Part shown: positions 37,439-63,824 of the stretch, one piece after another
Numbering within the stretch: position 1 is the first letter of the stretch
Layout of the letters: the number at the start of each line of letters is the position of its first letter
Virus record (IMG/VR): IMGVR_UViG_3300010885_057925
Coordinates: 107,518-171,517 of that record
Length of the DNA stretch: 64,000 nt
Direction: 5' to 3' (one strand)
DNA from: a virus
The notes under the pieces: generated by a model
Databases searched by the model: none
The model's input: only the letters and a program-made list of their open reading frames with translations
Told to the model about the DNA's origin: nothing
Translations under genes and position numbers: made by a program

Positions 37439-37726
37439 TTACTGTTGAGACTCGTCGTTCGCTAAAAGAGAACGATACGCTCTTTCAGCACGATCTCTAG
37501 CCCAGAAAGATGCATCACTCTCTGTCTTGAAACGTCTGCTAGGAGTGCTGAGGTCATCTCTGTCTTTCACTGTTACACTCGCGAAATAACAATCATTGAC
37601 CGGGTCGGCAGTGACAACAACATGAACTCCCGGAAAGTCGCGCCAGTTCATGGTGTCAGGTCTGGGAGATTTTAGATCTCTACCGATCTCTTCTCTAATT
37701 AGATTTCTCAGCAACGAGATCGTCAT
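37439..37726 (-). CDS. Hypothetical protein with LRxIIREE-type leader
   Basis: MTISLLRNLIREEIG. Confidence 0.65.
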   Translation of the reverse strand: MTISLLRNLIREEIGRDLKSPRPDTMNWRDFPGVHVVVTADPVNDCYFASVTVKDRDDLSTPSRRFKTESDASFWARDRAERAYRSLLANDESQQ

Positions 37727-37840
37727 AGCGATCTCTCAATCTCTTTGATATCTTTTATGCTGGACAGTATAATCCGCGCCGCTTCCGGATCGGTCTTGGC
37801 GAGCTTCCTGACTATCAATTCTAGATCTTTTATTGCTCTT

Positions 37841-38101
37841 CTAGAGAGATATCTCGATCGTGCTGACTGGTTCTCGGATTGCAATCAAATCTCCAGATTG
37901 ATTTCTTCTTATAACTATCAAGCTCTCATGAGTCATCGGGCACTTTTCGAATTGAAGATCGAGCTCACCATCTAACGGAACTTTGTAGATGAAATCTTCA
38001 TTTTCGTAGTTTAGAACTGGATCGTAAAAATCCACGTCAGACGTGAGCAGAAGAGTCGTGAAGAGAGCGATAAACATAACTAAAAATCTCCGTGAACGCA
38101 A
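37841..38101 (-). CDS. Hypothetical secreted/membrane protein
   Basis: Hydrophobic N-terminus. Confidence 0.45.
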   Translation of the reverse strand: MRSRRFLVMFIALFTTLLLTSDVDFYDPVLNYENEDFIYKVPLDGELDLQFEKCPMTHESLIVIRRNQSGDLIAIREPVSTIEISL

Positions 38102-38107
38102 ATAAAT

Positions 38108-38142
38108 ATCGCAGCTTAGAGTCTAAATCTCTAAGCTGCGAT
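38108..38142. terminator. Inverted-repeat hairpin (putative terminator)
   Basis: ATCGCAGCTTAGAG/CTCTAAGCTGCGAT. Confidence 0.6.
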
Positions 38143-38168
38143 TAAATTTACATGCTACGTGTCATCTC

Positions 38169-38705
38169 TTAAGAATTTTTTTTCATAATTTCTTTCATGA
38201 TTTTAACACGTTGCTTCGCTTTACGAAGCTTGTCTTTCGGTCGCTCGATCTCGGTGCAAAAAGCGATAGTGTGTTCAGCTGCTGACGCTTCCCGCTTCTC
38301 AAGAGACATTATCTTCTTACTCTTCTTTAAAGCGCCTATGATTCTGTCTATCGACTTCTTAGTATCTTTCATTTCGTGAGGCTTCATTTTTTTTCCAAGG
38401 CCTCGTGGGTTGATTTGAAAAATGCCAAGCTCTCCCGCGGATCCGACAGCGTCGGGATTTAATTTGCTTTCAGCGTAAGCATTAACAATAGCACCCATAA
38501 TCAAGTTGTCAGAAAATCCATGAGACCGTAGCTTACGCTCGATTCCACGAGCGATATCAACCTGATCATCGTTCAAAACTAGATTGTTCGCGACTGTGAA
38601 CTCGTAGGGTTCGGGTTCGGCTCTCGAAATTTCACTTGGGTATAGGGCGATTGCGCTAATTGAAATAAAGCACAACCCATGTGCCAAGTGCGAGAGATGA
38701 TGCAT
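38169..38705 (-). CDS. Lysozyme-like/phage tail lysozyme-type muramidase (start uncertain)
   Basis: NAYAESKLNPDAVG...GIFQ...ERP. Confidence 0.7.
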   Translation of the reverse strand: MHHLSHLAHGLCFISISAIALYPSEISRAEPEPYEFTVANNLVLNDDQVDIARGIERKLRSHGFSDNLIMGAIVNAYAESKLNPDAVGSAGELGIFQINPRGLGKKMKPHEMKDTKKSIDRIIGALKKSKKIMSLEKREASAAEHTIAFCTEIERPKDKLRKAKQRVKIMKEIMKKNS

Positions 38706-38952
38706 TAACGATTGCAAGCTCAAGTCTTTCTCCTTTTGACTTTGCGTCCAGGTAAAAAAACATGTTGAACGCATTGATGAGTGGCAGAACAAATCCGAGT
38801 GAGACCGCAATCAAGACTTCTTCGTGGGCTAGTGCTATTGAGAATCTCGTTGCAAAGACGTTTGTGCACATCGAAAGTGCAAACGCAGCTAGGAGACGAA
38901 CGATCCTCTGCTTTAGTATGCTCCGTGGGTCTTTTTCCATGCGATGTCTCAC
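38656..38952 (-). CDS. Small multi-pass membrane protein
   Basis: Three hydrophobic segments. Confidence 0.55.
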   Translation of the reverse strand: MRHRMEKDPRSILKQRIVRLLAAFALSMCTNVFATRFSIALAHEEVLIAVSLGFVLPLINAFNMFFYLDAKSKGERLELAIVNASSLALGTWVVLYFN

Positions 38953-39269
38953 TCGTCGTTGTCTGCCAATTCGTAATTATGCTTCTTGCTGACTAGCTCC
39001 CAAGCACGCTGACGTACTTCCATCATTACGTGACCTCTCTTTGATCTATTCGACAGACGGTCAATCCTCTTTTTGCTGAGAATACCCCTAAGAATCTTTC
39101 GAAACTTCCTGCGACACCGAAGAGATTCATCTTTTGTCATCGATGCTAGAGCTTCATCGATGCTTCTCGGTCTCTCATCACGAAAGGCGCTAGCGATCGT
39201 AGGGTGAATAACCCCAAGATCAAGGGCGATCATATCACTGAAAATATCGATCTGCTTGTAAGCGCTCAT
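38949..39269 (-). CDS. Hypothetical basic protein
   Basis: SD AGGAG, 106 aa. Confidence 0.6.
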   Translation of the reverse strand: MSAYKQIDIFSDMIALDLGVIHPTIASAFRDERPRSIDEALASMTKDESLRCRRKFRKILRGILSKKRIDRLSNRSKRGHVMMEVRQRAWELVSKKHNYELADNDE

Positions 39270-39281
39270 GTTGTCTCCTAG

Positions 39282-39321
39282 AAAAAATGCCGGAGCATCA
39301 ATAGGTTGATAGCTCCGGCAT
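39282..39321 (-). terminator. Intrinsic terminator closing the tRNA Lys-Gln-Glu transcript
   Basis: TGCCGGAGC/GCTCCGGCA stem followed by a U-run on the minus strand. Confidence 0.8.
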
Positions 39322-39330
39322 TGAGTTTAC

Positions 39331-39533
39331 TGACCACTAGCATCGTGTGGAATTTCAACTGGACACAAGCTTATCTGATCGCTGAAATCGATCGATGCGA
39401 TACTCCATTTTTAGAACCGGAGAGGACGCGGTCCCAACGCTGGACATCTCAGACCCTACGTTGAATAATGATATTCCTCTCGGACGCAAGACAACAAAGG
39501 AAGTGCGTCTACGCTATCACTAGAATGATAGCA
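39331..39533 (-). ncRNA. Candidate structured non-coding RNA
   Basis: About 200 nt with no ORF in the track, four helical domains, between tRNA-Glu and the terminator. Confidence 0.4.
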
Positions 39534-39535
39534 TC

Positions 39536-39610
39536 TGGTGATCCCACTGGGAGTTGAACCCAGCTTACGAGATTGAAAGTCTCGAGTCCTAACCGATAGA
39601 CGATGGGATC
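39536..39610 (-). tRNA. tRNA-Glu(TTC)
   Basis: Cloverleaf; anticodon arm CGAGA-CTTTCAA-TCTCG; CCA encoded. Confidence 0.93.
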
Positions 39611-39614
39611 AATG

Positions 39615-39688
39615 TGGTTGGGGCGTAAGGATTCGAACCTTCATTCGCGGGGTCAAAGCCCGCTGTCCTACCGTTGAACGACGCCCCA
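39615..39688 (-). tRNA. tRNA-Gln(TTG)
   Basis: GCGGG-CTTTGAC-CCCGC; CCA encoded. Confidence 0.93.
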
Positions 39689-39730
39689 TCATGGGTCCGT
39701 TTTTGCGGAACGGTTTCCTGAAACCTCAGG

Positions 39731-39806
39731 TGGTGGGCCCTGTGGGGGACGATCCCACAACCTTGTGATTAAAAGTCACTTGCTCTGCCAGTTGAGCTAA
39801 AGGCCC
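39731..39806 (-). tRNA. tRNA-Lys(TTT)
   Basis: GTGA-CTTTTAA-TCAC; atypical T-loop ATCGTCC; CCA encoded. Confidence 0.9.
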
Positions 39807-39850
39807 GCTTGATTTTGTTTGCGCGGTTTGTTTCCGCTCCTCACATATTG

Positions 39851-39879
39851 ATAATAACATGAGTGCGGTAGCTTTGCAC
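39851..39879 (-). promoter_or_regulatory. Sigma70-like promoter GTGCAA-N17-TATTAT
   Basis: One of six copies of this geometry; upstream of tRNA-Lys. Confidence 0.7.
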
Positions 39880-39882
39880 GAT

Positions 39883-40479
39883 TTATTTCGGCTTAACGCC
39901 ACTTTTTAGCACAATCTCACAGATGTGTTCGAGACGCTCGATATGCTCAAAAGCTGACCACGGGTCCCCCGCGACGGCACAAACTCCGTGATTTGCCTGC
40001 CCTACGACGTCGTGCTGGATCGAGCCGTCACCAGATACCCCCAGGTGGGCCCCAGTTGCGTCACCCAATTCACGTGATGTTGCCGGCAGGCAAGGTACAT
40101 TAGGCCCAACACGGGTGTACCGGTTCACTTCTGGAAACTGTCTGGCAATCTCCTGCAGGTCCCAACCCGCGTACATGGCTGCAACTATATGCGTCGCGTG
40201 AACATGCACAACGGCTCGGGTCTTTGAAGCACTCTTTTGGACTAACCAGTGCATGTGAAGCTCGCCAGAGGCGCTCTGCCCGCCGGGAACGATGACACCA
40301 TCATCCGTGAGCTTACATTTCACGATATGCTCTGGGTGAATGATCGTCTTTCTCCAGCCAGAGGGCGTGATGTAGAGAGTCTTTGAATTTGTTCTACGAA
40401 GTGAGATGTTACCGTCTCGGGTGGTGATCCACCCACGCTCGTGGCACTCACGCATGATATCGCCAATTGCTGTCAGCAT
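39883..40479 (-). CDS. Class II aldolase/adducin family protein
   Basis: DGNIS, ITPSG, SGELHMH, VVHVH, NHG. Confidence 0.88.
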   Translation of the reverse strand: MLTAIGDIMRECHERGWITTRDGNISLRRTNSKTLYITPSGWRKTIIHPEHIVKCKLTDDGVIVPGGQSASGELHMHWLVQKSASKTRAVVHVHATHIVAAMYAGWDLQEIARQFPEVNRYTRVGPNVPCLPATSRELGDATGAHLGVSGDGSIQHDVVGQANHGVCAVAGDPWSAFEHIERLEHICEIVLKSGVKPK

Positions 40480-40480
40480 G

Positions 40481-40858
40481 TCAATCCTTTAGAAGTTCTT
40501 GATGCTTGGTTCCACCGTCATACGTGACTGCGAACCCTAGTTTAACAAGTTCATCGTTGCAGCACAGACCGTCTTTAGTGTGTATCTTTCCGAGCCATCG
40601 ACCGTACTTGTCCAGACCACCAGACTCAAGGTAGACGTCCTGGTCAAGGATTTTTGATCTAAGCCAATCACGAGCAGCGAGACCCCTTTCCTTCAGCTGC
40701 TTGTCTTTGCTCTTAAGCTCAGCGGTATCGATTCCTGCTAGTCTAACCTTAAGACCCTTGAGAGTCATAGAAAACCCAAGATCAATGTCGACGGTGATCG
40801 TGTCACCATCGTACACTTTCTTGACGTTAGCGCGGTAGAAAAAGCAACGTGAGTCCAT
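40481..40858 (-). CDS. Thermonuclease (SNase-like)
   Basis: VYDGDT, VRLAGIDTAE, DKYGR. Confidence 0.9.
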   Translation of the reverse strand: MDSRCFFYRANVKKVYDGDTITVDIDLGFSMTLKGLKVRLAGIDTAELKSKDKQLKERGLAARDWLRSKILDQDVYLESGGLDKYGRWLGKIHTKDGLCCNDELVKLGFAVTYDGGTKHQELLKD

Positions 40859-40885
40859 GAGCTTTAAGTATTTCAAAAACAGAAA

Positions 40886-40905
40886 CGGCAGCCCGAAGGC
40901 TGCCG
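40886..40905 (-). terminator. Intrinsic terminator
   Basis: CGGCAGCC-TTCG-GGCTGCCG followed by a T-rich run. Confidence 0.75.
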
Positions 40906-40925
40906 CTTGCTGCTATTTTAGAAGA

Positions 40926-41033
40926 TTACTTCGCTGCAGTGTCAGCAGAAGTATCAGCGGAGCTGTCATTCTTGTCGCCGGTGCAACCACCGAGGAAGAT
41001 AGAGCTAAGAGCCGCGAGAATCATGAACTTCAT
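40926..41033 (-). CDS. 35-aa Asp/Thr-rich mini-lipoprotein (below the ORF-track cutoff)
   Basis: SD AAGGAG; MKFMILAALSSIFLGGCTGDKNDSSADTSADTAAK with lipobox LGGC. Confidence 0.75.
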   Translation of the reverse strand: MKFMILAALSSIFLGGCTGDKNDSSADTSADTAAK

Positions 41034-41086
41034 TACTTTCTCCTTGAGAGATTTTAATTATATGATACTTGGAAATCTTGTAACAA

Positions 41087-41162: not shown

Positions 41163-41215
41163 TAGTGAATGAAATATAGCGATGAGTTGATCTATTTACA
41201 AGAATATTTAGCGTC

Positions 41216-42250
41216 ATGGGCACTGACCTTAGAAAATTAATACGCCTAATGCTGGAGTCGGATGAGACAGTTCCGACCTCGAGAGATTTCGTTTCTTATG
41301 ATCCGTTCTCTCATAGGCAGGCAACGATAGAGAGCGTTGCGAAAGACGTCGCAGAAGAGCTCGAACTTTCTAACTTGAGATACCTTTCAAGATCGAAACG
41401 GCTTTACGGAGCTTACACGTTCGCAGCGATCGATGAAAGAAACGAGAACGTGGTGCTGAAAATTCAGCCCGTGAATGAGATCGAAGGTTACAAACGCGCG
41501 CAGCAGATGATCTCTCGTCTTCCCAATCATGTGTCACGCCATATGCCAGTCATCTATAAGATAAGGACCTTAGACGAGCTTGGCGTTCCTCTTCCAAGTG
41601 ACGATTTTGGAAACTCTGAGAATCTCGGAATAATCGTCATGGAGCGTCTCGAGCAACTTCCCGGCAACATGTTCGATCTAATCACCGAACCAGCGACAAG
41701 CTCGATGCAATCTCTGAGATCTCTTATCAGCGATCATCAAGCTTTCGGAGATATGGTCGACAATGTGATCGAAAAGAATGAGAGGACGATTTCGTCCGTT
41801 ATTTCAAAATCTGATCGCAAAGTTGATAAGCTGCAAGAGCTCGAGAGATTGAGAAAGATGTTGAAATCGATTGCGTTCAGTCCTGAATCGGTTGTTGGCG
41901 ACGAAAGCACGATGATAAGCGTAACAGACGGACTGAACGACACAGTTCAAGAGAAAGTAAGACTTTGGTGCCGCGCGCTAGGAATTACAAAACCGGGTGC
42001 CATACAGACATTGACGAAAATGCTGATGAGCACAGTGTCAACGGTTCTGGGTAGACGAGCAGTACCCAAAGAGCCCACTCGCACCAGCCCGGGAGCTCTC
42101 GGTCGTGTGAAGGGAATTCGAGAGTTGGTGAGAGCTCTAGAGGATCTTAAAAGATTGAATATCAATCCATCCGACGTTCATGGAAACAACATCATGCTAC
42201 GTCCAGAAACTGGTGAGCTTGTCCTGGCTGACCTAGGTCACTTCAAGTAA
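41216..42250 (+). CDS. Protein kinase-like protein with N-terminal leader
   Basis: VVLKI (catalytic Lys), IVMERL, SDVHGNNIM, ADLG; leader MGTDLRKLIRLMLES. Confidence 0.75.
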   Translation: MGTDLRKLIRLMLESDETVPTSRDFVSYDPFSHRQATIESVAKDVAEELELSNLRYLSRSKRLYGAYTFAAIDERNENVVLKIQPVNEIEGYKRAQQMISRLPNHVSRHMPVIYKIRTLDELGVPLPSDDFGNSENLGIIVMERLEQLPGNMFDLITEPATSSMQSLRSLISDHQAFGDMVDNVIEKNERTISSVISKSDRKVDKLQELERLRKMLKSIAFSPESVVGDESTMISVTDGLNDTVQEKVRLWCRALGITKPGAIQTLTKMLMSTVSTVLGRRAVPKEPTRTSPGALGRVKGIRELVRALEDLKRLNINPSDVHGNNIMLRPETGELVLADLGHFK

Positions 42251-42471: not shown

Positions 42472-42475
42472 GTGT

Positions 42476-43829: not shown

Positions 43830-44402
43830 TTAGGGGCGATTTAATGTCTCCGAAGGATCAACGATAATAATATCATCGAACCCTTCCTCGCGTGTCGGCA
43901 TCTCGAATCGTGCCAGTGTATCCTCGATGATCTTTCTGCTCAGATGCTTGTCATCCAGCTCCGCAGCTCGTTTTTCGACAGACTGCTGGACAAGTTCCTC
44001 CATCCCACGGTAGTCAAAGAACACTGCGATCTTTTCGTAATCGTCCTCACGACCCTGGATCGCTGCGAGAGCTCGACGTCTTGCTTTGGATCCCATGTTT
44101 GTCATATCAACAACGATGTCCTTACTGGAGGCGGAAGCCCCCTTGATATTGTCCTTGTGAAGCCTCTCTATCTCCTTACGATGAGCACCCGCTCTTGGAC
44201 CAGCGATCTCATCGTATTTTAGTCCAAGAGGTTTCCTGACGATGTCGACCACTTTGTCGTAGCTGATGATGTAAGGGTCGGAAACATTCTGCTCAACCCA
44301 ATAGGATTTTCCGACTCCCTGCGGCCCAACAAGCACATAGATCTTGGGACGAGAGAGACTCTCGCGGATAATCTGGCGTAGAAGAGAGATAGACAAGCTC
44401 AT
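43830..44402 (-). CDS. P-loop kinase (polynucleotide kinase/AAA_33-like) with N-terminal leader
   Basis: VGPQGVGKS, VVDMTN, EMPTREEGFD; leader MSLSISLLRQIIRESL. Confidence 0.8.
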   Translation of the reverse strand: MSLSISLLRQIIRESLSRPKIYVLVGPQGVGKSYWVEQNVSDPYIISYDKVVDIVRKPLGLKYDEIAGPRAGAHRKEIERLHKDNIKGASASSKDIVVDMTNMGSKARRRALAAIQGREDDYEKIAVFFDYRGMEELVQQSVEKRAAELDDKHLSRKIIEDTLARFEMPTREEGFDDIIIVDPSETLNRP

Positions 44403-47586: not shown

Positions 47587-47589
47587 CCG

Positions 47590-49502: not shown

Positions 49503-51704
49503 TTATTTCAATTTTAGTAGCTTGATCAGCAGCGCCTCGTAGAGTGATGACTGCTCAACGCTCCTGTCATCGATGCTCGTGAGGTAGGCTGACATCTCTG
49601 ACTGAAATTCTGAGACGGCAGCGCTTAGCTTCATGATCTGCGATTTTGCGAACTCGTACTTGATCCGCTTGGACTCGCGCGTACGAGTCTCGTTAGAAGC
49701 ATCCGACCTCTTAATTTCTCCAAGCTTATCATACAGCTCGCTCAACCCGACCTCAGAAGCATTAGAGATCGCTTTTTTGTATTTCCTGTTGATCGCTTCC
49801 ATCTGCTGACGCTGCTCAGCTGGCACCGATGTCAACCATCCAGGAACGAAATCACTCTGAAAGAACGAGTCGAAATCGACGTCTAGATATCCATCGTTCT
49901 GCCTGAACACCTCAGGACTGTCACCGACCAAGTCCCTGTAGAGACCGATCTTTGACATCGCTCCGGACACGATATCTTGCAGCTGTTCGGAAAGATCTTC
50001 GACACCGCCGAGCTTTGCTTTTAGATCTTTGACGCGTGGCCGGTTTAGGTTCTTCTTGTCAAGGACCTTCAGCCGTTCAGCCCCAGCGCTCTCCCTCTCC
50101 TTCCTCTTTTCGACCGCGTATCTGAGACGTAGGACGTCGATCAGCCGCTTCTCACCGTGCTCAGGGTCTAGTATCGTGTAATCGCTGCCGAGCTCCTTTA
50201 TCACAGGCACGACGAGCTGTGTGAAGCGTTCAAGCGGCACCGAGCTGTGAAGGAACGCTGAACCCGATAGCATCACGAGAAATTTTGCTGCCTCGATGTC
50301 CTGCGACACGATGCTGCCCTTCACGCTGGCGAAGAATGATTCGCAGAGCTTGATCGCAAACTTTGCTGCGATCGGATCCGGACCTGTGACGTAGAGCCTC
50401 CCGAGGAATCTCTCCATCCAGCTGAACTTACCACCTGAACTATTAACGAGAGCATCGATGATGGATTCATTGCCAGCGAGATCGTAGGTGACAGCGATCT
50501 TGTACGGAAGGACAGCGTCAATTTTACCGGAGCTGCTCACGAACCAGGACACAATCTCGGAGATATCATCACGCAACCCGAGCTTATCAATCGTACCCCT
50601 CAGTTTGCTTCCGAATATCCTGTGGTTACGACCGGCAATCTCTATGAGATCGAACGCCGTAGTCCTTTTATCCGGCGTCGTCTTGAATTTGCGGATCTTG
50701 ATCCTGATGTCATCGACGGTGTCATTGATCTTGCTCTCAAGCTGTTGCTTGCTGTAAGTTGAATAGTTGGGTTGCTTCTGAAAGGCATTGTTGAACTGGC
50801 GCATCTCATCTATGATGGATGTGTCCATGACAGCGATCTGCTGGGGTTCATTACTGTGGACAAGACCCTCGCCCGCATCGTCAACAAGCGCTTTGATTCC
50901 GACCATGATGAGGAGCCTTCTCCAAACAGAGATATCAGAGCTCTTCACTCGCGAGTCTGTGTCCGCTGCAGTGTCGAAATCTGCAGCAACTTTCATGCTT
51001 GAGAGCGCCCGTGAGAGCGTCCAGATGATCTGCAGTCTTCCGAGGTTAGATATCGAGCTTGAGTTCTTCGGTGACGTGTCATTGACACCGAAGACTTTAT
51101 TGTGCCGTCCGGCCTGAACCAGCATCGACATGAATGATCTTTCTGGATTAACGTCCTTGCTGTTCTGCTTGAACCACCCAAGAAGCTTGTCGATGGCTGC
51201 CCTGTAGGTGGCGTCGTCCATTCCTGTCGATGTCTGGAACACGCCTGACATATCGTTGAAGCTGAAGAAGTTGATGTAAGGAGCTTCGGCAACGAACGGA
51301 AGCTGGTAAGTTACCTCGGCGTACGGGCTCAGTTGGTCCGCAATCTCAGGCATCTCGAGTCCCATCTGCATGTAGCGCCCTCTCGTGAGATGCATGATCA
51401 TCTCCGGAGTGACAGGATACGCGTACAGGGCGAGCGGAGTATCGAACGGCGACGCTGGATTGATCCCGACCTTCTGGATCGAGGTCATGGTGAAGCCGTA
51501 CCTCACCCGATCGCCGGCGCTCCTGCGAGCGAGATCGAGTCCGAACTGTGCGATCTGCTTCTCGGTGTCCTGCCGTCCTGATTTCGTGACGGGAGCGTCA
51601 GGTTCATCAGCAGCGCTGAGAGCAGCTCGCGTGGAAGCGCGGCGGGCACGGGACGACTCCTCGAGCTCTTGATGCACGATCTGCCTGATAAGTCTTCGAT
51701 TCAT
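49503..51704 (-). CDS. Large hypothetical protein with N-terminal leader
   Basis: MNRRLIRQIVHQELEES; KVGINP...TPLALYAYP and D.GEGLVHSNEPQQ segments. Confidence 0.75.
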   Translation of the reverse strand: MNRRLIRQIVHQELEESSRARRASTRAALSAADEPDAPVTKSGRQDTEKQIAQFGLDLARRSAGDRVRYGFTMTSIQKVGINPASPFDTPLALYAYPVTPEMIMHLTRGRYMQMGLEMPEIADQLSPYAEVTYQLPFVAEAPYINFFSFNDMSGVFQTSTGMDDATYRAAIDKLLGWFKQNSKDVNPERSFMSMLVQAGRHNKVFGVNDTSPKNSSSISNLGRLQIIWTLSRALSSMKVAADFDTAADTDSRVKSSDISVWRRLLIMVGIKALVDDAGEGLVHSNEPQQIAVMDTSIIDEMRQFNNAFQKQPNYSTYSKQQLESKINDTVDDIRIKIRKFKTTPDKRTTAFDLIEIAGRNHRIFGSKLRGTIDKLGLRDDISEIVSWFVSSSGKIDAVLPYKIAVTYDLAGNESIIDALVNSSGGKFSWMERFLGRLYVTGPDPIAAKFAIKLCESFFASVKGSIVSQDIEAAKFLVMLSGSAFLHSSVPLERFTQLVVPVIKELGSDYTILDPEHGEKRLIDVLRLRYAVEKRKERESAGAERLKVLDKKNLNRPRVKDLKAKLGGVEDLSEQLQDIVSGAMSKIGLYRDLVGDSPEVFRQNDGYLDVDFDSFFQSDFVPGWLTSVPAEQRQQMEAINRKYKKAISNASEVGLSELYDKLGEIKRSDASNETRTRESKRIKYEFAKSQIMKLSAAVSEFQSEMSAYLTSIDDRSVEQSSLYEALLIKLLKLK

Positions 51705-55862: not shown

Positions 55863-56237
55863 ATGCCAGTCAACGTCAAGAGAATAATCCGTGAAGAGCT
55901 CGCCCGCATTCTCGAGGGTGACGTCGTCCACGTCAAGTTCGGTGGTGCACAGAAGACGAAGGAGCGCGAGAAGTCAAATTACCAGAGAGCTCTCGGAAAG
56001 GTAGTCTCAATGCTGGAAGAGATCATCAACGGCGAGGGCGCTGACATGGAGGACGATCAGATCGTCGAGCTCACGAAGCTCCTTGACCATGTGACCGGTA
56101 TGCAGGACGACGCGGCGGGCGAACCAGACGAGGAGGACGAAATGCCCTTTGGCGGACGTGCCTCGGGCCGCGAGCGCGATGAGCTATCTAATTTCAAGAA
56201 GTACATGAGTGACCGTGATCGCGATCGCGATTACTAA
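55863..56237 (+). CDS. Hypothetical acidic protein with N-terminal leader
   Basis: MPVNVKRIIREELARILEG; ATACTTA at 55838 and SD GAGG. Confidence 0.75.
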   Translation: MPVNVKRIIREELARILEGDVVHVKFGGAQKTKEREKSNYQRALGKVVSMLEEIINGEGADMEDDQIVELTKLLDHVTGMQDDAAGEPDEEDEMPFGGRASGRERDELSNFKKYMSDRDRDRDY

Positions 56238-56251: not shown

Positions 56252-56959
56252 ATGCCATCCGCGAAAGAATTCATACGAGCGTTCGAGCGAGCCACGGAAA
56301 CTTCATCGAAGTACGATGAATTTCGCAGCATGCTGCAATCTCTCGACGGATCGTTGGGTCAAGATTCACGGTCAGCCTCGATCAAGCTCAACACCAACAA
56401 AAAGGGATCCGACAGCAGGGTCGTTGAAGACGCTGTTCGTGAGAAATTTAAAGATAACCTAGGGAGAAGCAGGTACCCGGACGCTTTATTCGGCGCGATA
56501 CCAGTTGAAGTAAAGCATACTACCTCTGGGTTCGGAAAGCTGCCGACTGATTCATACGGTCTGACGAGAACTGACAAAAAATGGTACTTATTCGTCAAGG
56601 GTTCTGTCGACAGGGTGGAGAATGAAAACTTCACAGCGTGGTTGATGAGATCCGACTCGCTGTATCAGGAAATGACGCTGCTGCTTCGTGGCACGAGCCA
56701 GGGATCTTTATTTCCACACCAGGATCTCAATTCGATCGATCCAATGTCTGACGACGCGCTGGTGAATATCGAGAAGGAAATAAAAGATATCGCGAGCTCT
56801 CTGTCTACCTCCATCCTCAGGAAAGCGAGAGGAGAGGCCGAAAAGAGCGAGTCTGAGACCATGAGTCTCAGTAAGAGAGTGGGCATCAACAGGATCAGAT
56901 TCGACGTTAAGTTCGAGTCTAAGCTGCGTAAGATAATCTCTGATATAATCAACGATTAG
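56252..56959 (+). CDS. Putative PD-(D/E)XK nuclease with C-terminal leader-like motif
   Basis: E...YPD...VEVK; ends FESKLRKIISDIIND. Confidence 0.6.
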   Translation: MPSAKEFIRAFERATETSSKYDEFRSMLQSLDGSLGQDSRSASIKLNTNKKGSDSRVVEDAVREKFKDNLGRSRYPDALFGAIPVEVKHTTSGFGKLPTDSYGLTRTDKKWYLFVKGSVDRVENENFTAWLMRSDSLYQEMTLLLRGTSQGSLFPHQDLNSIDPMSDDALVNIEKEIKDIASSLSTSILRKARGEAEKSESETMSLSKRVGINRIRFDVKFESKLRKIISDIIND

Positions 56960-58619
56960 TCTTGAGAGCGTCGTTTTCTTCTTCGTCCGGCTCCGCGAGC
57001 GCGAATTCTGGATTTCCCATAGCTGCAAGACGGTCTATGATCTTCCTGTACAGTTCACTGCTCTCCGGAATGTTCGAGAGCGGCGCTGCGACGGGCAACC
57101 TTGATTTTCTGCGACCTGTGTAGTTCTTTTCGTGAGTGTGCTCGCGACCTTCCTGTGCCCTGATCATAAGCAGGGGCGCACCGTAGATCGCAAGAGGCGG
57201 ATTGCTCTGGCTCCTGATACGGTCAAACACCCTTCGCATTTCGCGAAGCGTGATACCTGATTCCATGTTATCATCCGCTATGATAGCTATGTGCAAGAAG
57301 GACGGGAGCGTCTCCACGTCAGCCTCGATAAAATCAGCGACGTGGCGCCGGTTTTGAGAAGGAACTACGCTGATCGAAAAATCAGACTTGTTCGCAGCAA
57401 GCATCCGCTTCCGCCAGTCTGGAATATCTCCTCGACGTTCATCCTCAAAATCTTTTATCAGATCGCCAACGGTCAAGCGACTCGGAACCGCCTGCTTCCC
57501 CCAGGCGTCCCACCTCTTTTTTATGAACGGGCTCAAGTTTGCGAGTTGCTGCTTCTGGACCTTCGAGAGATCGATTTCACCTGCGATGCCCTCCGCACCA
57601 GGGTTTGTTTCCTTAGCGAGGTCTCCGATCTGCTTAGCGAATTGCCTCGAGATGGTTTGATCAGCTTGAATTCCAGGATCCTGTGATACAGGGATTTTTC
57701 TGAACGATCTGTTGACGTCCACATCGGTCGACGTGAGGTAACCGTCAGGAAGCTGAAAATCTTTTATCGATTTCTCGAATCTTCTGATCTTCATGACGAT
57801 GTTCCTAACGAATTTCTGCGTAACCTCCGGGAATGAGTCTGGGTTTGCCTGAACTCTCTCGTACATCTTTCCGAATTTCTCTTTAGCGAGTCCAACGGCT
57901 TCCTCGTACTTTTTCTTTGCGAACTTTTCAAAGAAATAATCGTATGTCCCAAGTCTGTCGACGCCTTTGTTAAAAATGTCGATCGACTTTTTGATTTCTT
58001 CGGCGCATTCCTTGTAGGCGTTTTTGGAAAAATCTGACTTAGCTGTTTTTTTCTTGACCGAGACCCGTGACCCGATGTAGCGTGCCAAGCTGCTCCGAAG
58101 ACCTTCAACGTAATCGTTGACATGATTGGACGATGATGGGGTCACATAGATCGAGATTCTGGCTTCCTTCACTTCCTCTGGGAGATCTCCTCTCTGAACG
58201 CGTTCGTCAAGGTCGTCGACAATCGAACGGGCGATTATGCGGGTTCCGTCAGAGATATACTGCTGCATATCTTTTTCGGGTATCGTGTAGACAGTGTCAC
58301 GCTTACCCTTCAGGGCTTCAAGCACATCTTCGAGGTGGGAAGGGTAGGCCTTACTGTTACGTGCAGGCGCATTTTGCTGGAACGCGAACGCGGAACGGAT
58401 GGCGAAAACGTCTCCCGGAGACTTCTCCTGGAACTCCTTGAACTTATCGTCGGACGTGTAAGCTTCTCCGCTCTCACTCTTTCTCACAAAATGAATGTCG
58501 TTGAGATCCCAGGAGAGCGGAATCTGGTCACCAGGTTTAACGCCTGAGAGGTCGCCAACTTTGAAACCTTCGTTGACGAGGTAAGATCTGACGATATTTC
58601 TAAGAGTTCTTTCGTTCAT
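56949..58619 (-). CDS. Large protein with type I phosphoribosyltransferase-like motif and N-terminal leader
   Basis: IIADDNMESGITL PRPP-loop-like motif; MNERTLRNIVRSYLVNEG. Confidence 0.65.
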   Translation of the reverse strand: MNERTLRNIVRSYLVNEGFKVGDLSGVKPGDQIPLSWDLNDIHFVRKSESGEAYTSDDKFKEFQEKSPGDVFAIRSAFAFQQNAPARNSKAYPSHLEDVLEALKGKRDTVYTIPEKDMQQYISDGTRIIARSIVDDLDERVQRGDLPEEVKEARISIYVTPSSSNHVNDYVEGLRSSLARYIGSRVSVKKKTAKSDFSKNAYKECAEEIKKSIDIFNKGVDRLGTYDYFFEKFAKKKYEEAVGLAKEKFGKMYERVQANPDSFPEVTQKFVRNIVMKIRRFEKSIKDFQLPDGYLTSTDVDVNRSFRKIPVSQDPGIQADQTISRQFAKQIGDLAKETNPGAEGIAGEIDLSKVQKQQLANLSPFIKKRWDAWGKQAVPSRLTVGDLIKDFEDERRGDIPDWRKRMLAANKSDFSISVVPSQNRRHVADFIEADVETLPSFLHIAIIADDNMESGITLREMRRVFDRIRSQSNPPLAIYGAPLLMIRAQEGREHTHEKNYTGRRKSRLPVAAPLSNIPESSELYRKIIDRLAAMGNPEFALAEPDEEENDALKTNR

Positions 58620-60365: not shown

Positions 60366-60602
60366 CTAGCTTAGGTGCATCCTTATGTCTGAGATCCTGG
60401 AGCGCGAGGCGTCCGTCGGCGTCCCGGCTGCGTCGGTCTCTAGGACAGCAAGTGCCCACAGCTTGCCATGATTCGGTCGAATCTTCATGATGTCGGACCT
60501 AATTCGCATCAGAAGCTCCTCATCCTCATGCGGTATGGAGGCCGAAATTGTCGAGTAGTATGACGTGCTGGTGATGGTGAAAAGGCAGTAGACTGGATTC
60601 AT
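60366..60602 (-). CDS. Hypothetical protein
   Basis: ATGA overlap with the upstream gene. Confidence 0.5.
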   Translation of the reverse strand: MNPVYCLFTITSTSYYSTISASIPHEDEELLMRIRSDIMKIRPNHGKLWALAVLETDAAGTPTDASRSRISDIRMHLS

Positions 60603-61354
60603 CCGGTGATATTAATCACGCGCTGCCGCGATTTTAGTGATTCTGAAATTTCAATGAAATTTTCTTCCTCTTCCTCTTCCTGCATGCTTGGAACATGCGA
60701 GATGTAGGTTCCCTGCGCTGACATCTCGTATTTCGATCCGGGCGATCCCTGAAAATGATCCTTGACGTCGCTTTCACGGACGATTGTGACTCTTCTCTCT
60801 GCTAATCCCGAGCTTTTTGCGATCTTTCCGATCTGCTTCCAGACTTGTACCGGGTTCTTCTCAACGTCTAAGTTCGGATTATCGATCTTCGCCTTCTCCT
60901 CGGCGGCGCGGTCGATCCCGCTCATGTCAGGGACGCTCTGAACCGTTCGAAGGTTCGGGTTGTCCTTCATCATCTTGTTGAGGTCATTACCAGATGCGGG
61001 GTCAGATGCTGCGATGTTGAGGATGGCGGCGGCAGCTTTTGCACGCTCCTTCGGATCTTTGGCTCCCTTCGTGCTGGGGTCGGTCCCGAATCCCTTGAGG
61101 TAAGTTTTTTTATCCTCAGGAGAGAGCTTGGAGATCTCTTTCCTCGCGTTGAAGACGCTGCTGCTTGTCTTCGAAGCAGCATCCTTCGCGTGCCTGTTTG
61201 CCAGCTCAACGCTCTTCGCGCGGGTCGCACTTTTCACGTCGGCTGGCATGCTGGTAGGATTTCCGGCGCCTGCTTCACCACCGAGGACGCCCTCGTTCAT
61301 CATCGAAAGCTCCTCACGTATGATTTTTCTAAGAGCTGATTCATCAAGCGACAT
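60599..61354 (-). CDS. Hypothetical protein with N-terminal leader
   Basis: MSLDESALRKIIREELSMMNEG. Confidence 0.75.
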   Translation of the reverse strand: MSLDESALRKIIREELSMMNEGVLGGEAGAGNPTSMPADVKSATRAKSVELANRHAKDAASKTSSSVFNARKEISKLSPEDKKTYLKGFGTDPSTKGAKDPKERAKAAAAILNIAASDPASGNDLNKMMKDNPNLRTVQSVPDMSGIDRAAEEKAKIDNPNLDVEKNPVQVWKQIGKIAKSSGLAERRVTIVRESDVKDHFQGSPGSKYEMSAQGTYISHVPSMQEEEEEENFIEISESLKSRQRVINITG

Positions 61355-61398
61355 CGGGTTCTCCACTCGGCTAACCTAAGTATGCCTGATGAGTCAGT

Positions 61399-61995
61399 TT
61401 AAACGGAGAAGTAAGCGCCTCGGGTGTGTGCAACTCTATCGAGGTATTCTTCGCTGATTTCGGTCAGCGAGAATCTCATGTCTAGGGCGTCGAGAAGCGA
61501 GACGCGCCTCATCATGACCGGGCTACGAAATTTTCCAATCTCAACTTTTGAACCGCCACGGGCTTCTTCAGCGAAGATCCTGACGTGTGCTTGGACTTTC
61601 TCGGCTAGCCTAGGATCGAAATCGTTGATCGGACCCTCTTCGGAAATCTTGGCGATGCTCACCTGCATCTGTCCGTTTCGGTACCCGAAGTCGTGGAGGC
61701 TCATCCCCTCGTAGCCGACGTCCTTCACTGGAAATGGAACATGCCATGTGTTGCTCGCGCGGTTGCCCTCACGAAGCACATTCTTCCAGATCCACTCGGC
61801 CGTGCCTGGGCGATCTGGGTTCATGATGACGCTTGCCACGTCGGATTGACCACCGATGCGGAGGAGCTCGACGACCATTCGACCGTTGAGATCCTTGAGC
61901 TCAATCTTAGATTTAAGAGGAGGTTCCGATACCTCACGGAGACGTCGAAGCTCCTCACGGATGATCTGCCTCAGCTGTCTCTCATTGATCTTCAT
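61399..61995 (-). CDS. Hypothetical protein with N-terminal leader
   Basis: MKINERQLRQIIREELRRLREV; SD GGAG. Confidence 0.75.
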   Translation of the reverse strand: MKINERQLRQIIREELRRLREVSEPPLKSKIELKDLNGRMVVELLRIGGQSDVASVIMNPDRPGTAEWIWKNVLREGNRASNTWHVPFPVKDVGYEGMSLHDFGYRNGQMQVSIAKISEEGPINDFDPRLAEKVQAHVRIFAEEARGGSKVEIGKFRSPVMMRRVSLLDALDMRFSLTEISEEYLDRVAHTRGAYFSV

Positions 61996-62070
61996 GAAAC
62001 TACTCTCCAACGGATGATAAATATACGTCCTGTCTTTAAAATCAGCCAAAACGCTGGAACATGAGAAGCC

Positions 62071-62880
62071 TCAACGACGCCTTGGAAGTCCCAGTGAGTC
62101 CCGGACCTCGTCGTCGGACATCCTCTGCGGCTTCCTGGGAGGTGGCGGGGCAGCCACACCACCAACGCGTCGTATGGCGCCAGGTGATGGTGCACGTGGG
62201 GGTTCGGGAGCGGCGGGTGGTGGGGGTGGATTGCGCTCAGCCCGAGCCGCTCGACGCTCCTCACGCTCAGCCGCCCGCTCATCCTTCTCGCGTTGGGCCC
62301 CGATACCATCACGATGACGCTTCAGAGCGTAGTTTGCGGCTGACCAAGGATCCCTCATATTGGGACCGCCCAGGTGCACCATGAACGCGAACCCAACGTT
62401 ATGAAGCCACCGTGGGGGACTGTCCTTTGTGGCAGGGAACATGATATCGACAAGAGGTATCGTGTCTCCGGGTCGCACGCCGGGCACCCCCAGGGCAGAC
62501 GGATCCTTGTGGTGGACGGACGCGATAGTTCCCGGGTTCGTGTACGCCTCATCGTAGCCGTGCAGCGTCGGAATGATAACGTGATCGCCCTTGTTGAAGT
62601 AGATGTCGTTCTTGCCGAATATGGACTTGACATCGCCCGTCTTGCTCTCGAAATCCCGCTTCCACGGCCGCGTCATGTCGCCGTCGTTGTACCAGCTGTT
62701 GAAAGCGGGTGAGCTACCGATGAAAGGGTTACTCTCGAAAGGGATGTGACGCTTGTTGGGTGTCCACTCGACGTCCTCCTTCGTCCTCACGCTGTAGCCG
62801 TGCCTGTTCCTGATAGCCTCATCGAGCTGCTCGAGCTCCTCACGGATGATCTGCCTCAGCTGCCCCTCGTTGATCCTCAT
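62071..62880 (-). CDS. Hypothetical protein with N-terminal leader and Pro-rich tail
   Basis: MRINEGQLRQIIREELEQLDEA; SD GGAG. Confidence 0.75.
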   Translation of the reverse strand: MRINEGQLRQIIREELEQLDEAIRNRHGYSVRTKEDVEWTPNKRHIPFESNPFIGSSPAFNSWYNDGDMTRPWKRDFESKTGDVKSIFGKNDIYFNKGDHVIIPTLHGYDEAYTNPGTIASVHHKDPSALGVPGVRPGDTIPLVDIMFPATKDSPPRWLHNVGFAFMVHLGGPNMRDPWSAANYALKRHRDGIGAQREKDERAAEREERRAARAERNPPPPPAAPEPPRAPSPGAIRRVGGVAAPPPPRKPQRMSDDEVRDSLGLPRRR

Positions 62881-62979
62881 GAAAACCGCTCCAACGGATC
62901 CTAAATATAGTGCCCCGGGGGGAACTTGGGAAGTCTCCGGCCCGGGGCACTTTTTCACGCAGCGTGTGCCAGCGTGGAA

Positions 62980-63288
62980 TCAGCGGTTCATGATGTAGTC
63001 GCCCATCATCATGTTGACAGCGTAGAGCTCGCCCTTGCCGTCCTCCTGCGGGAACTCCTCCATACCGGAGTCCATCGTCGCGCCGAGGAGACGGTCGGTG
63101 CAGGACACCCACTCCTCCCACAGGCCGTCGACCTCGCTATCGCCGCTGTCGAGCATGGGCTCATCGCCCTGACTGCCACCGCCGTACCAGCCGCGGGCCT
63201 CACGCAGGGGCTTACGTGCGCCCCTCACCATCCTTGCCGCTTCCTGACGCACGATCCGGCGCAGGTCACCCTCTGTCAGTCTTGCCAT
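62980..63288 (-). CDS. Hypothetical protein with N-terminal leader
   Basis: MARLTEGDLRRIVRQEAARM...LREA. Confidence 0.72.
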   Translation of the reverse strand: MARLTEGDLRRIVRQEAARMVRGARKPLREARGWYGGGSQGDEPMLDSGDSEVDGLWEEWVSCTDRLLGATMDSGMEEFPQEDGKGELYAVNMMMGDYIMNR

Positions 63289-63356
63289 GATAAAATCTCC
63301 CTCGACGTAACGTCGAAATTAAGTATATCGGTCAGGTCAAAAACCTCCTGGTGCGA

Positions 63357-63824
63357 CTAATCCCCACCCGGACCCGGGAAGTTCGACCAGTCCTTGCGAC
63401 CCGTTGAGATGCCCTGCAGGATCTTCTGCCTGTACTTCTCACGGACATCATCGTCATCATCGTCATCATCGTTGTCGGGCGCGGACTTGGTGGGCGCTGC
63501 CTTGGCCACGGTGGCCTGTGGTGCCGCGGGCTTCGCGGCGATCCCGAGCTCCCTGTGGAACATCTCCTTGTTCCTCATGATCGACGAGGAGACGAGAGAC
63601 ATCAGCGCGTTATCGTTTCCGGCGTTCGCCAGAATCAGCCGGAGCGTGACGAGCTCGGGACCGTTGAGTCCCAACGATTCCAGCTTGCCCATGAGGCGTC
63701 TGATGACCACAACAACCGAATCGGGATCGTCCGGCAGGCCGCTCTGTGTGTCGAAACCCTCGCGGAGCGTCCGTCGTGCCTCCTCCCGGACGATCTTTCT
63801 CAACTGTGATTCTGTGATTCTCAT
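63357..63824 (-). CDS. Hypothetical protein with N-terminal leader
   Basis: MRITESQLRKIVREEARRTLREG. Confidence 0.75.
   Translation of the reverse strand: MRITESQLRKIVREEARRTLREGFDTQSGLPDDPDSVVVVIRRLMGKLESLGLNGPELVTLRLILANAGNDNALMSLVSSSIMRNKEMFHRELGIAAKPAAPQATVAKAAPTKSAPDNDDDDDDDDVREKYRQKILQGISTGRKDWSNFPGPGGD

What the first reader, a model, noticed from the sequence alone, without database searches (positions are those of the whole stretch)
37439..63824. Shared LRxIIREE...LxE leader on at least 11 unrelated proteins: candidate capsid-targeting / injected-cargo system
Seen: N-termini MTISLLRNLIREEI (37726), MGTDLRKLIRLMLES (41216), MSLSISLLRQIIRESL (44402), MNRRLIRQIVHQELEES (51704), MPVNVKRIIREELARILEG (55863), MNERTLRNIVRSYLVNEG (58619), MSLDESALRKIIREELSMMNEG (61354), MKINERQLRQIIREELRRLREV (61995), MRINEGQLRQIIREELEQLDEA (62880), MARLTEGDLRRIVRQEAA (63288) and MRITESQLRKIVREEARRTLREG (63824). 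Beyond ~20 residues the proteins show no similarity I can see: a kinase-like fold, a P-loop kinase, a PRTase-like protein and several unknowns. Most leaders end in hydrophobic-x-E followed by a small residue. Known: T4 internal proteins share a short N-terminal capsid-targeting sequence that the gp21 prohead protease removes after (I/L)-x-E, and IPI* is an injected anti-restriction factor. Inference: this amphipathic helix is a portable packaging tag that loads a variable set of enzymes into the head for delivery at infection.
Basis: partly seen in the sequence, partly recalled or inferred. Interest (0 to 1): 0.9.

Follow-up and report, generated by a model that had tools for sequence, protein, structure and literature searches.

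The report
Head-loading leader tag on phage proteins
At least twelve unrelated proteins of this uncultured freshwater T4-like phage begin with the same ~20-residue helix carrying the cutting motif of the phage's head protease. It is most likely an address tag that loads them into the capsid, a much enlarged version of a trick known from phage T4, though no protein data exist yet.

Summary
All 11 N-termini are at the stated coordinates. A 12th lies at genome position 6888 (outside the window), and four divergent copies exist, two of them in the head-gene module.

The leader (core LRxIIREE, Met usually 7 residues before the Leu) is always N-terminal. It is conserved as protein with varied codons, and the bodies behind it are unrelated.

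The genome is a fragment (about 51% complete) of a T4-like myovirus with a gp20 portal, gp23 capsid protein and S77 (gp21-type) prohead protease. The leader contains two L/I-x-E protease motifs, at Glu14 and Glu21/22, and resembles the predicted capsid-protein maturation site.

Across the clade, two small proteins encoded next to the protease carry the same kind of leader.

- The leader heads 8-36 genes in four of five checked near-complete relatives.
- It matches 8,848 protein clusters in public data.
- Apart from a few likely mis-binned MAG contigs, it was not found in bacterial genomes.
- All 10 long leader-bearing contigs tested encode an S77 protease.

Best reading (about 0.55): a capsid-targeting propeptide cut off by the head protease, as for T4 internal proteins but with a different sequence and far more cargo. 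Packaging, cleavage, timing and injection are untested.

This scan has noted analogous tags in other uncultured T4-like phages. I found no paper describing this one.

The parts
37439..37726 (-). Leader-bearing gene, 95 aa. Leader codons are about 37661-37726. Body unknown.
   Evidence: Translation. Leader profile 27.3 bits at the N-terminus. No Pfam or PHROG hit.
41216..42250 (+). Leader-bearing gene, 344 aa, with a protein-kinase-like/APH-like body. The leader variant ends in M-L-E|S. An ATATTTA motif lies at 41204-41210.
   Evidence: 52 orthologues keep the leader. AF2 mean pLDDT 86.9: leader helix at residues 3-14, linker 16-23 with pLDDT below 50. Top Foldseek hits are kinases and aminoglycoside phosphotransferases. 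Motif checked.
43830..44402 (-). Leader-bearing gene, 190 aa, with a P-loop kinase body (AAA_33, polynucleotide-kinase-like). The P-loop strand begins directly after the leader.
   Evidence: Pfam PF13671 E 1e-11. PHROG matches to ATPase and polynucleotide kinase families.
49503..51704 (-). Leader-bearing gene, 733 aa, the largest cargo. Function unknown. An ATAATTA motif lies at 51710-51716.
   Evidence: 48 homologues keep an N-terminal leader ending L-E-E|S-S. No Pfam, PHROG or PDB hit. The AF2 model is poor.
55863..56237 (+). Leader-bearing gene, 124 aa. The leader ends I-L-E|G. An ATACTTA motif lies at 55838-55844.
56949..58619 (-). Leader-bearing gene, 556 aa. The leader ends V-N-E|G. An ATAATTA motif lies at 58628-58634.
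   Evidence: No family or PDB hit.
60599..61354 (-). Leader-bearing gene, 251 aa, with hxE at Glu14 and Glu21. An ATACTTA motif lies at 61377-61383.
61399..61995 (-). Leader-bearing gene, 198 aa, with a canonical leader (hxE at Glu14 and Glu21). An ATATTTA motif lies at 62018-62024.
   Evidence: (32.4 bits with the independent profile). Orthologues are 80-83% identical.
62071..62880 (-). Leader-bearing gene, 269 aa. Its leader shares 29 identical nucleotides and a similar promoter/RBS stretch with the previous gene. An ATATTTA motif lies at 62902-62908.
62980..63288 (-). Leader-bearing gene, 102 aa. The first hxE after the core is at Glu30. An ATACTTA motif lies at 63320-63326.
63357..63824 (-). 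Leader-bearing gene, 155 aa, with hxE at Glu14 and Glu22. An ATATTTA motif lies at 63848-63854. The contig ends 176 bases further on.
   Evidence: (31.3 bits).

Best explanation
The leader is a portable capsid-targeting propeptide.

Its typical form is a 14-22-residue N-terminal amphipathic helix: Met, then K/R-I-T/N-E-x-Q, then the core L-R-x-I-I/V-R/K-E-E-L. A second hydrophobic-x-Glu usually follows, then G, S, A or D.

Proposed mechanism:
1. Late in infection, leader-tagged proteins co-assemble into the scaffolding core of the prohead. The core also contains the scaffold protein and two small core proteins encoded beside the protease, which carry the same kind of leader.
2. Once the shell is complete, the S77 (gp21-type) prohead protease cuts after Glu14 and/or Glu21-22.
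3. The freed bodies stay in the head with the DNA and probably enter the next host cell. They include a kinase-like protein, a P-loop kinase and several proteins of unknown function.

Shown here:
- the tag exists, is strictly N-terminal and is selected as a peptide;
- it sits on unrelated bodies and contains L/I-x-E at fixed positions;
- it occurs on head-module proteins;
- it co-occurs with S77 and is restricted to phage-derived sequence.

Inferred: binding to the core, cleavage, retention in the virion, and delivery.
For: 1. The genome has a T4-type head module. It encodes Portal_T4 (E 1e-78), Peptidase_S77 (E 2.5e-25) and Gp23 (E 2e-75). The protease is 33% identical to T4 gp21 and keeps the HP and SSRG blocks.

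2. In 171 leader proteins from other contigs, hydrophobic-x-Glu occurs in 97% at residues 11-15. It occurs in 65% at residues 16-24 (peaks at Glu21/22). Later windows of equal size show 11-17%. Glu14 is present in 94% although the search pattern did not require it. T4 gp21 cuts after L/I-x-E (PMC9026906).

3. The capsid protein has a conserved h-L-R/K-E|S/A site at residue 61, just before the region that aligns with mature T4 gp23. This site resembles the leader core.

4. A ~150-aa and a ~100-aa protein encoded just after the protease begin with leader-like helices ending I-L-x-E-G. This holds in most of the 23 relatives found through the capsid protein and in 8 of 10 contigs found through the leader alone.

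5. All 10 long contigs found by the leader pattern encode S77. Four of five relatives at least 96% complete carry 8-36 leader genes.

6. In 596 Gb of bacterial and archaeal genomes the pattern hits only 23 stretches. The two multi-copy assemblies checked are MAGs that also encode S77. The two isolate hits match the roughly 2 expected by chance.

7. In the AF2 model of the kinase-like cargo, the leader is a separate helix joined by a low-confidence linker. Orthologues keep the leader at 41-67% overall identity.

8. The promoter-like motif ATANTTA lies within 45 nt upstream of a start in 32 of its 51 occurrences. For 12 control motifs the figure was 0-9. It precedes 10 of 12 leader genes as well as the tail tube, both sheath genes, the scaffold and g052.

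9. Single ORFs with 2-4 in-frame leader copies exist in public data, as expected if the leader is a processing site.
Against: - There are no virion proteomics, cleavage data or expression timing for any member of this clade, and no close cultured relative (best capsid-protein identity to an isolate is 48%).
- The leader has no sequence similarity to the T4 tag. In this genome the T4-like motif (Y-Q-E-A-I-A-D-A) is found only on the scaffold protein.
- L/I-x-E is a short motif and Glu-rich helices are common, so its presence alone is weak evidence.
- ATANTTA also precedes a DnaB-type helicase gene, and no late sigma factor was found, so 'late' is not established.
- Several bodies are acidic (pI 4-5), unlike the basic T4 internal proteins.
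- Leader genes lie in tRNA-rich accessory regions far from the head genes. In many phages such regions are early.
Confidence: 0.55

Rival explanations
1. The helix is a shared docking or oligomerisation tag for something other than the capsid. It could bring many phage effectors to one host or phage hub (for example ribosome, polymerase, membrane or another phage assembly), and it is not removed.
For: - It is a charged amphipathic helix on a flexible linker.
- The genes lie in accessory, tRNA-rich regions.
- Similar helices occur at the C-terminus of g017 and of the head-module protein g050, which suggests helix-helix pairing.
- Timing is unresolved.
Against: - It would not explain why the tag carries L/I-x-E at two fixed positions.
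- It would not explain why proteins encoded between protease and scaffold have it.
- It would not explain why every long leader-bearing contig tested has S77.
Confidence: 0.2
2. The leader is a recognition sequence for another enzyme, such as a modifying maturase (as in RiPP-like systems), a different protease, or a degradation tag that times protein turnover.
For:
- One conserved leader on many bodies is the pattern seen when one enzyme serves many substrates.
Against: - This genome fragment has no radical-SAM gene.
- None of the flanking genes scanned has an assignable maturase or modifying-enzyme domain; several have no family hit.
- The only conserved enzyme found with the tag is the S77 head protease.
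- The fragment is only about 51% complete, so a partner could lie elsewhere.
Confidence: 0.08
3. The promoter-RBS-leader unit is a recombination or expression cassette that moves new genes into expressed slots. On this view the peptide has little function of its own.
For: Arrays of many tagged genes exist.
Against: - Most copies differ at synonymous sites yet keep the residues.
- Orthologues at 41-67% identity keep the leader.
- 39% of internal copies in fused ORFs have lost the Met yet keep the motif.

A cassette role can coexist with a targeting role.
Confidence: 0.07
4. The genes are diverged paralogues of one family whose N-terminus evolves slowest.
For: The genes are clustered, and there are local DNA-level duplicates.
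Against: - The bodies have different folds and lengths: kinase-like, P-loop kinase, and 95 to 733 aa.
- In relatives the same leader heads YkuD, DnaJ, HAD, tRNA-ligase-CPD and HEAT/LRV domains.
Confidence: 0.03

Closest known systems
Capsid targeting sequence (CTS) of phage T4 internal proteins IPII/IPIII (and IPI), removed by the gp21 prohead protease (Mullaney and Black 1996, as reviewed in PMC9026906, PMC9958956, PMC3012670)
   Same: - A short N-terminal tag shared by otherwise unrelated, variable proteins.
- It ends in L/I-x-E.
- The phage has a gp21-type S77 protease and a T4-type portal, scaffold and capsid protein.
- The genes lie around the tRNA cluster with homing-endonuclease genes, as ipI-III do in T4.
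   Different: - The sequence is unrelated: M-K-T-Y-Q-E-F-I-A-E in T4 (read) against the LRxIIREE core here.
- The tag is longer (14-22 against 10 residues) and has two candidate cut sites.
- There are 12-16 tagged genes in half a genome and up to 36 per relative, against 3-4 in T4.
- Bodies reach 733 aa and include enzymes, and many are acidic.
- Function is untested here.
N-terminal propeptides of T4 gp24 and Alt (Alt is a packaged, injected ADP-ribosyltransferase processed at both ends)
   Same: - The 10-residue gp24 propeptide read from the T4 record (M-A-K-I-N-E-L-L-R-E|S) looks like a shortened version of the leader here (M-K-I-N-E-x-Q-L-R-x-I-I-R-E).
- Alt shows that large enzymes can be loaded this way and that C-terminal propeptides exist (PMC9026906). 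That parallels the leader-like C-termini of g017 and g050.
   Different: - There is no homology between the 733-aa cargo and Alt (BLASTP E 0.15).
- No ART-PolyVal domain was found in the genome.
Propeptides of head and ejection proteins in phiKZ-like giant phages (phiKZ, 201phi2-1, SPN3US), cut by gp21-related proteases (PMC5694885, PMC9026906)
   Same: Many different proteins are loaded into the head and cut after Glu by a diverged gp21 homologue. Multiple cut sites occur per propeptide.
   Different: Those propeptides are mostly over 100 residues and not a single shared tag. Their motif is S/A-x-E, and those phages lack a T4-type scaffold.
Cargo-loading peptides of encapsulins and the packaging signals of phage P1 Dar proteins (my own knowledge, not tested here)
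   Same: A short terminal peptide directs unrelated cargo into an HK97-fold shell.
   Different: Encapsulin tags are C-terminal and not cleaved. P1 Dar loading is hierarchical and uses different sequences.
Promoter-early stem-loop (PeSL) cassettes that shuffle small genes in T4-type hyperplastic regions (Arbiol, Comeau and Krisch 2010; my own knowledge)
   Same: Repeated regulatory units lie in front of variable small genes in accessory regions.
   Different: Here the repeat extends into the coding sequence and is conserved as a peptide.

Membership tests
T4-type capsid-targeting propeptide (CTS) system | Short N-terminal peptide shared by otherwise unrelated proteins | tested here: met
   12 of 12 copies are N-terminal and there is no strong internal match. 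The bodies are unrelated.
T4-type capsid-targeting propeptide (CTS) system | Tag ends in the gp21 cleavage motif L/I-x-E | tested here: met
   hxE is at residues 11-15 in 97% and at 16-24 in 65% of 171 leaders, against an 11-17% background. All 16 copies in this genome have at least one within 32 residues.
T4-type capsid-targeting propeptide (CTS) system | Phage encodes an S77 gp21-type prohead protease within a T4-type head module | tested here: met
   PF03420, PF07230 and PF07068 hits. 33% identity to T4 gp21. 10 of 10 leader-bearing long contigs have S77.
T4-type capsid-targeting propeptide (CTS) system | Sequence similarity to the T4 CTS | tested here: not met
   The leader core differs from the T4 tag read. 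The only T4-like motif in the genome is at the scaffold N-terminus.
T4-type capsid-targeting propeptide (CTS) system | Tag is necessary and sufficient for encapsidation | not testable with these tools
   This needs leader-reporter fusions in an infected host or a prohead assembly system.
T4-type capsid-targeting propeptide (CTS) system | Tag is removed by the prohead protease in mature virions | not testable with these tools
   There is no cultured close relative or proteome.
T4-type capsid-targeting propeptide (CTS) system | Made when proheads assemble (late expression) | tested here: inconclusive
   ATANTTA is shared with tail tube, sheath and scaffold genes, but it also precedes a DnaB helicase gene. 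No RNA data were available.
phiKZ/SPN3US-type head-protein propeptides | Long (often >100 aa) propeptides cut at S/A-x-E | tested here: not met
   The leader is 14-22 residues and P3 is Ile, Leu, Val or Met.
RiPP-like leader served by a radical-SAM maturase | A radical-SAM/SPASM enzyme encoded with the tagged genes | tested here: not met
   There is no PF04055 match in the 171.5-kb record, while all 14 control genomes match. The record is about 51% complete.
Sec/Tat/lipoprotein signal peptides | Hydrophobic core of 10 or more residues, or a twin-arginine motif plus such a core | tested here: not met
   Read directly from the translations. The leader is charged and amphipathic with Arg/Lys and Glu throughout and has no hydrophobic stretch.
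Single paralogous protein family | Detectable similarity beyond the shared N-terminus | tested here: not met
   Best BLASTP E is 0.056 between bodies. Domains and folds are distinct.

The most novel reading that the evidence does not exclude
One address tag defines a clade-wide set of thousands of protein families that are loaded into the head of uncultured T4-like phages and delivered with the DNA. Single ORFs with 2-4 in-frame tags would be true polyproteins that the prohead protease cuts into separate effectors inside the capsid. This would make the phage head a polyprotein-processing and delivery compartment on a scale not known for tailed phages.
Probability: 0.3. Interest if true: 0.8.

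Novelty: new variant of a known kind. Interest (0 to 1): 0.6.

Why it matters
If the tag works as proposed, sequence alone would reveal which proteins these abundant, uncultured freshwater and marine phages carry into the cell. That set includes kinases, RNA-repair-type enzymes, a cell-wall transpeptidase domain and hundreds of unknowns, all of them candidates for first-minute host takeover and counter-defence. It would show that the T4 internal-protein device is a general, expandable cargo system rather than a peculiarity of T-even phages. It would also supply a second, longer targeting tag for loading foreign proteins into phage heads. The hypothesis can be tested directly with one protease, one reporter fusion and one virion proteome.

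Tried and rejected
- **Complex prediction.** No result.
- **tblastn of a 26-aa leader against GenBank phages.** No match; the query is too short.
- **Word-indexed protein search restricted to residues 1-40.** Found only two orthologues.
- **First DNA pattern.** It had too few specified bases.
- **The 733-aa cargo.** The Atlas lead to ART-PolyVal scored 0.83, which is below the tool's 0.9 threshold. It was not borne out: BLASTP against T4 Alt gave E 0.15 and PF18760 is absent from the genome. The AF2 model is too poor for a fold search (mean pLDDT 69.7, pTM 0.40).
- **phmmer against PDB for three large cargos.** No hits.
- **Pfam and PHROGs.** Nine of the 11 canonical cargos scanned have no Pfam match at E <= 0.001 and no PHROG match at E <= 0.01. 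The 155-aa one was scanned only within alignment A2.
- **Late sigma factor.** tblastn with the phage RM378 sigma factor found nothing.
- **Cultured relatives.** Flavobacterium phage immuto, Microcystis phage Mel-JY01, Rhodothermus phage RM378 and cyanophage S-SSM4 have 0-1 weak leader matches, so no published proteome can be used.
- **Literature.** A full-text search for six leader strings found no paper.

Full report
**Observation.** The resulting ORFs are 95-733 aa. The window is the last 64 kb of a 171,517-bp virus record that CheckV rates about 51% complete.

A regular-expression scan and a profile scan of all six frames of the whole record add a 12th canonical copy at genome 6888(-). Four divergent copies appear in my ORF list: g017, g029, g052 and g053.

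Nothing else in the six-frame translation scores above 11 bits with the profile of the 12. A profile built only from other phages' leaders recovers 8 of the 12 at E <= 0.015. All 8 are at the N-terminus, and no internal site in a real gene scores above 8 bits.

The bodies after residue 25 are unrelated by BLASTP (best E 0.056). The conserved Leu and Arg positions use many synonymous codons, including both AGR and CGN. Only the last three genes share long identical nucleotide runs.

**What the genome is.** The record encodes a T4-type head module at 57-68 kb:
- large terminase;
- Portal_T4 (E 1e-78);
- a Peptidase_S77 prohead protease (E 2.5e-25; PHROG 'head maturation protease' E 3e-51);
- a long acidic coiled-coil protein in the scaffold position;
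- a Gp23-family major capsid protein (E 2e-75).

The protease is 33% identical to T4 gp21 and keeps the HP and SSRG blocks. Tail tube and two tail sheath genes follow.

The nearest cultured phages are distant. The capsid protein is 48% identical to Flavobacterium phage immuto and 32% identical to Rhodothermus phage RM378. More than 598 IMG/VR contigs share 63-79% capsid-protein identity. DNA of the window occurs in freshwater metagenomes from several studies.

**The tag in the head module.** Just after the protease gene, most of the 23 relatives found through the capsid protein encode two small proteins. So do 8 of 10 contigs found through the leader alone. One is ~150 aa and begins with a leader-like helix ending I-L-x-E-G. 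The other is ~100 aa with a K-L-T-P-x-L-L-K/R-K/R-h-V-L-E-E start. In this genome they are g053 and g052. These are the positions held by core proteins gp67 and gp68 in T4.

The capsid protein has a conserved h-L-R/K-E|S/A site at residue 61. It lies a few residues before the stretch that aligns with mature T4 gp23. T4 gp23 loses 65 residues at L-T-E|A (PMC9958956; sequence read). The predicted capsid cut site therefore resembles the leader core I-I-R-E.

**Anatomy of the tag.** Hits were often 3-9 per few kb.

In the 80 loci examined I found 198 distinct N-terminal leader ORFs (median 101 aa). The Met lies exactly 7 residues before the Leu in 183 of them. Positions the pattern did not fix are also conserved: K/R at +5, and Glu at +6 (residue 14) in 94%.

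Hydrophobic-x-Glu occurs in 97% at residues 11-15 and in 65% at residues 16-24, with peaks at Glu21/22. Later windows show 11-17%. T4 gp21 cuts after L/I-x-E, and T4 tags are 10-20 residues (PMC9026906, PMC5694885).

Read from the T4 record, the IPII/IPIII tag ends I-A-E|A, the gp24 propeptide ends L-R-E|S and Alt's ends F-D-E|D. The gp24 propeptide looks like a shortened form of the present leader.

**Distribution.**
- The profile finds 19, 14 and 6 copies in three large relatives and 15 in the 484-kb uncultured phage LR756508. It finds 0-1 in immuto, Mel-JY01, RM378 and cyanophage S-SSM4.
- Four of five relatives at least 96% complete carry 8-36 copies, clustered far from the head genes.
- All 10 long contigs found by the leader alone encode S77.
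- An exhaustive HMMER search of 1.84 billion representatives gives 8,848 clusters at E <= 0.001.
- In 596 Gb of bacterial and archaeal genomes the pattern hits only 23 stretches, nearly all in MAGs. The two multi-copy assemblies checked also encode S77. The two isolate genomes with single hits do not, which matches the roughly 2 chance hits expected.

The tag is therefore confined to phage-derived sequence, and every long tagged contig tested encodes S77.

**Cargo.**
- The 344-aa protein has a kinase-like fold. AF2 gives mean pLDDT 86.9, and the top Foldseek hits are protein kinases and aminoglycoside phosphotransferases.
- In that model the leader is a separate helix (residues 3-14) joined by a linker with pLDDT below 50 (residues 16-23).
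- Its 52 homologues keep the leader at 41-67% identity.
- The 190-aa protein is an AAA_33 / polynucleotide-kinase-like P-loop kinase whose first strand starts right after the leader.
- The other bodies have no family match.
- Among 68 tagged proteins from this and related phages, Pfam finds AAA_33, YkuD, DnaJ, HAD_SAK_1, tRNA-ligase CPD, LRV/HEAT and EF-hand domains, each in one or two members.

**Timing.** A promoter-like heptamer, ATANTTA, lies within 45 nt upstream of a same-strand start in 32 of its 51 occurrences. For twelve control heptamers the figure was 0-9.

It precedes 10 of 12 leader genes, g017, g029 and g052. It also precedes the tail tube gene, both sheath genes, the scaffold gene and endonuclease genes. 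It also precedes a DnaB-type helicase gene. No late sigma factor was found and no RNA data exist. Co-regulation with virion genes is suggested, not shown.

**Fused ORFs.** All of the top 150 HMMER hits contain 2-4 leader copies in one ORF, and 144 of them also start with one. One example translates without stops under table 11 from its contig. Its internal copy is preceded in frame by GGAGG and ATG. Of the internal copies, 61% keep the Met and 39% do not. Such fusions are easy to tolerate if the leader is a processing site, but internal initiation is an alternative.

**Mechanism and rivals.** The best-supported reading (about 0.55) is a capsid-targeting propeptide that brings cargo into the scaffolding core and is cut off by the S77 protease.

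The main rival (0.2) is a docking or oligomerisation helix for another target. It leaves three things unexplained: the fixed hxE positions, the head-module copies, and the presence of S77 in every tagged contig tested.

A maturase- or degradation-tag reading (0.08) lacks a partner enzyme. No radical-SAM gene is present, and no maturase-type domain could be assigned to the flanking genes scanned. A pure expression or recombination cassette (0.07) is contradicted by peptide-level conservation. A single diverged paralogue family (0.03) is contradicted by the different folds.

**Comparison and novelty.** It works like the T4 CTS and meets the context criteria: N-terminal position, L/I-x-E, an S77 protease, and a T4-type head module. 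It is not a sequence relative of the T4 tag. In this clade the T4-like motif sits only on the scaffold N-terminus.

This suggests that such tags are copies of core-protein N-termini. T4's tag resembles the N-terminus of its scaffold gp22. Here the tag resembles the N-terminus of the core protein next to the protease (inference).

The scale also goes well beyond T4: 12-16 genes in half a genome, up to 36 per relative and thousands of families overall. I found no paper describing this leader. PMC9026906 already suggests that the CTS may be a general way for T4-like phages to load varied proteins.

Earlier notes of this scan report analogous tags in other uncultured T4-like phages. Those notes are unchecked AI notes and are not counted as evidence here.

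Verdict: a real feature, a new variant of a known kind, with the function inferred rather than shown.

Noticed in passing
public proteins P0055-P0204; locus L271:95-1270: Single ORFs carry 2-4 in-frame copies of the leader, with a median of 130 residues between copies. One was checked in DNA: it is free of stops under table 11, and the internal copy is preceded in frame by GGAGG and ATG. Of 171 internal copies, 61% keep the Met. These may be polyproteins or fused genes with internal starts.
   Followed up: partly
whole genome; window examples 41204-41210(+), 62018-62024(-): The heptamer ATANTTA behaves as a promoter-like element: 32 of its 51 occurrences lie within 45 nt upstream of a start. 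In several genes it ends only 5-8 nt before the ATG (for example at 41216, 51704 and 58619), which would give leaderless mRNAs if it is a -10 element.
   Followed up: partly
genome 58961-60679(-) (L004:1961-3679): The scaffold-position protein begins with a motif (L-Y-Q-E-A-I-A-D-A) very close to the T4 capsid-targeting tag and to the T4 gp22 N-terminus. This is its only occurrence in the genome. The family also has a conserved mid-protein M-L-R-R-E-L-x-R-L-R stretch that resembles the leader.
   Followed up: partly
genome 14216-16159(-) and 60708-61307(-): g017 (647 aa) has a leader-like N-terminus and ends with a leader-like helix. The head-module protein g050 also ends with an R-L-R-R-L-I-R helix, which is conserved in the closer relatives. 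This recalls the C-terminal propeptide of T4 Alt.
   Followed up: partly
window 39536-55725: Twenty tRNA genes are interleaved with the leader genes, an endonuclease-type gene (47736-48446) and a GIY-YIG-like gene (by its N-terminal motif, not scanned; 54653-55393). This is the same loose arrangement as ipII/ipIII, the tRNA cluster, segB and ipI in T4.
   Followed up: partly
window 36746-47519: Host-like accessory genes lie among the leader genes:
- acyl-CoA dehydrogenase (44468-46357);
- a di-haem cytochrome c peroxidase, probably a lipoprotein (46530-47519);
- class II aldolase (39883-40479);
- SNase-like nuclease (40481-40876);
- lysozyme/SLT protein (38169-38810);
- a trypsin-like protein, probably a lipoprotein (36746-37432).
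   Followed up: no
genome 44393-50527(-): Two adjacent tail sheath paralogues of 1000 and 1032 aa, each with its own ATANTTA motif.
   Followed up: no
Genome-contig loci L292, L287: MAGs labelled Methylococcaceae TMED69 (a 306-kb contig with at least 15 leader matches) and Halobacteriovorax SP2999 hold leader arrays, and their assemblies encode an S77 protease. These are probably phage contigs binned into bacterial genomes.
   Followed up: partly
window 64000 (contig end): The record ends inside the leader-gene cluster and is rated about 51% complete, so the true number of tagged genes in this phage is probably larger.
   Followed up: no
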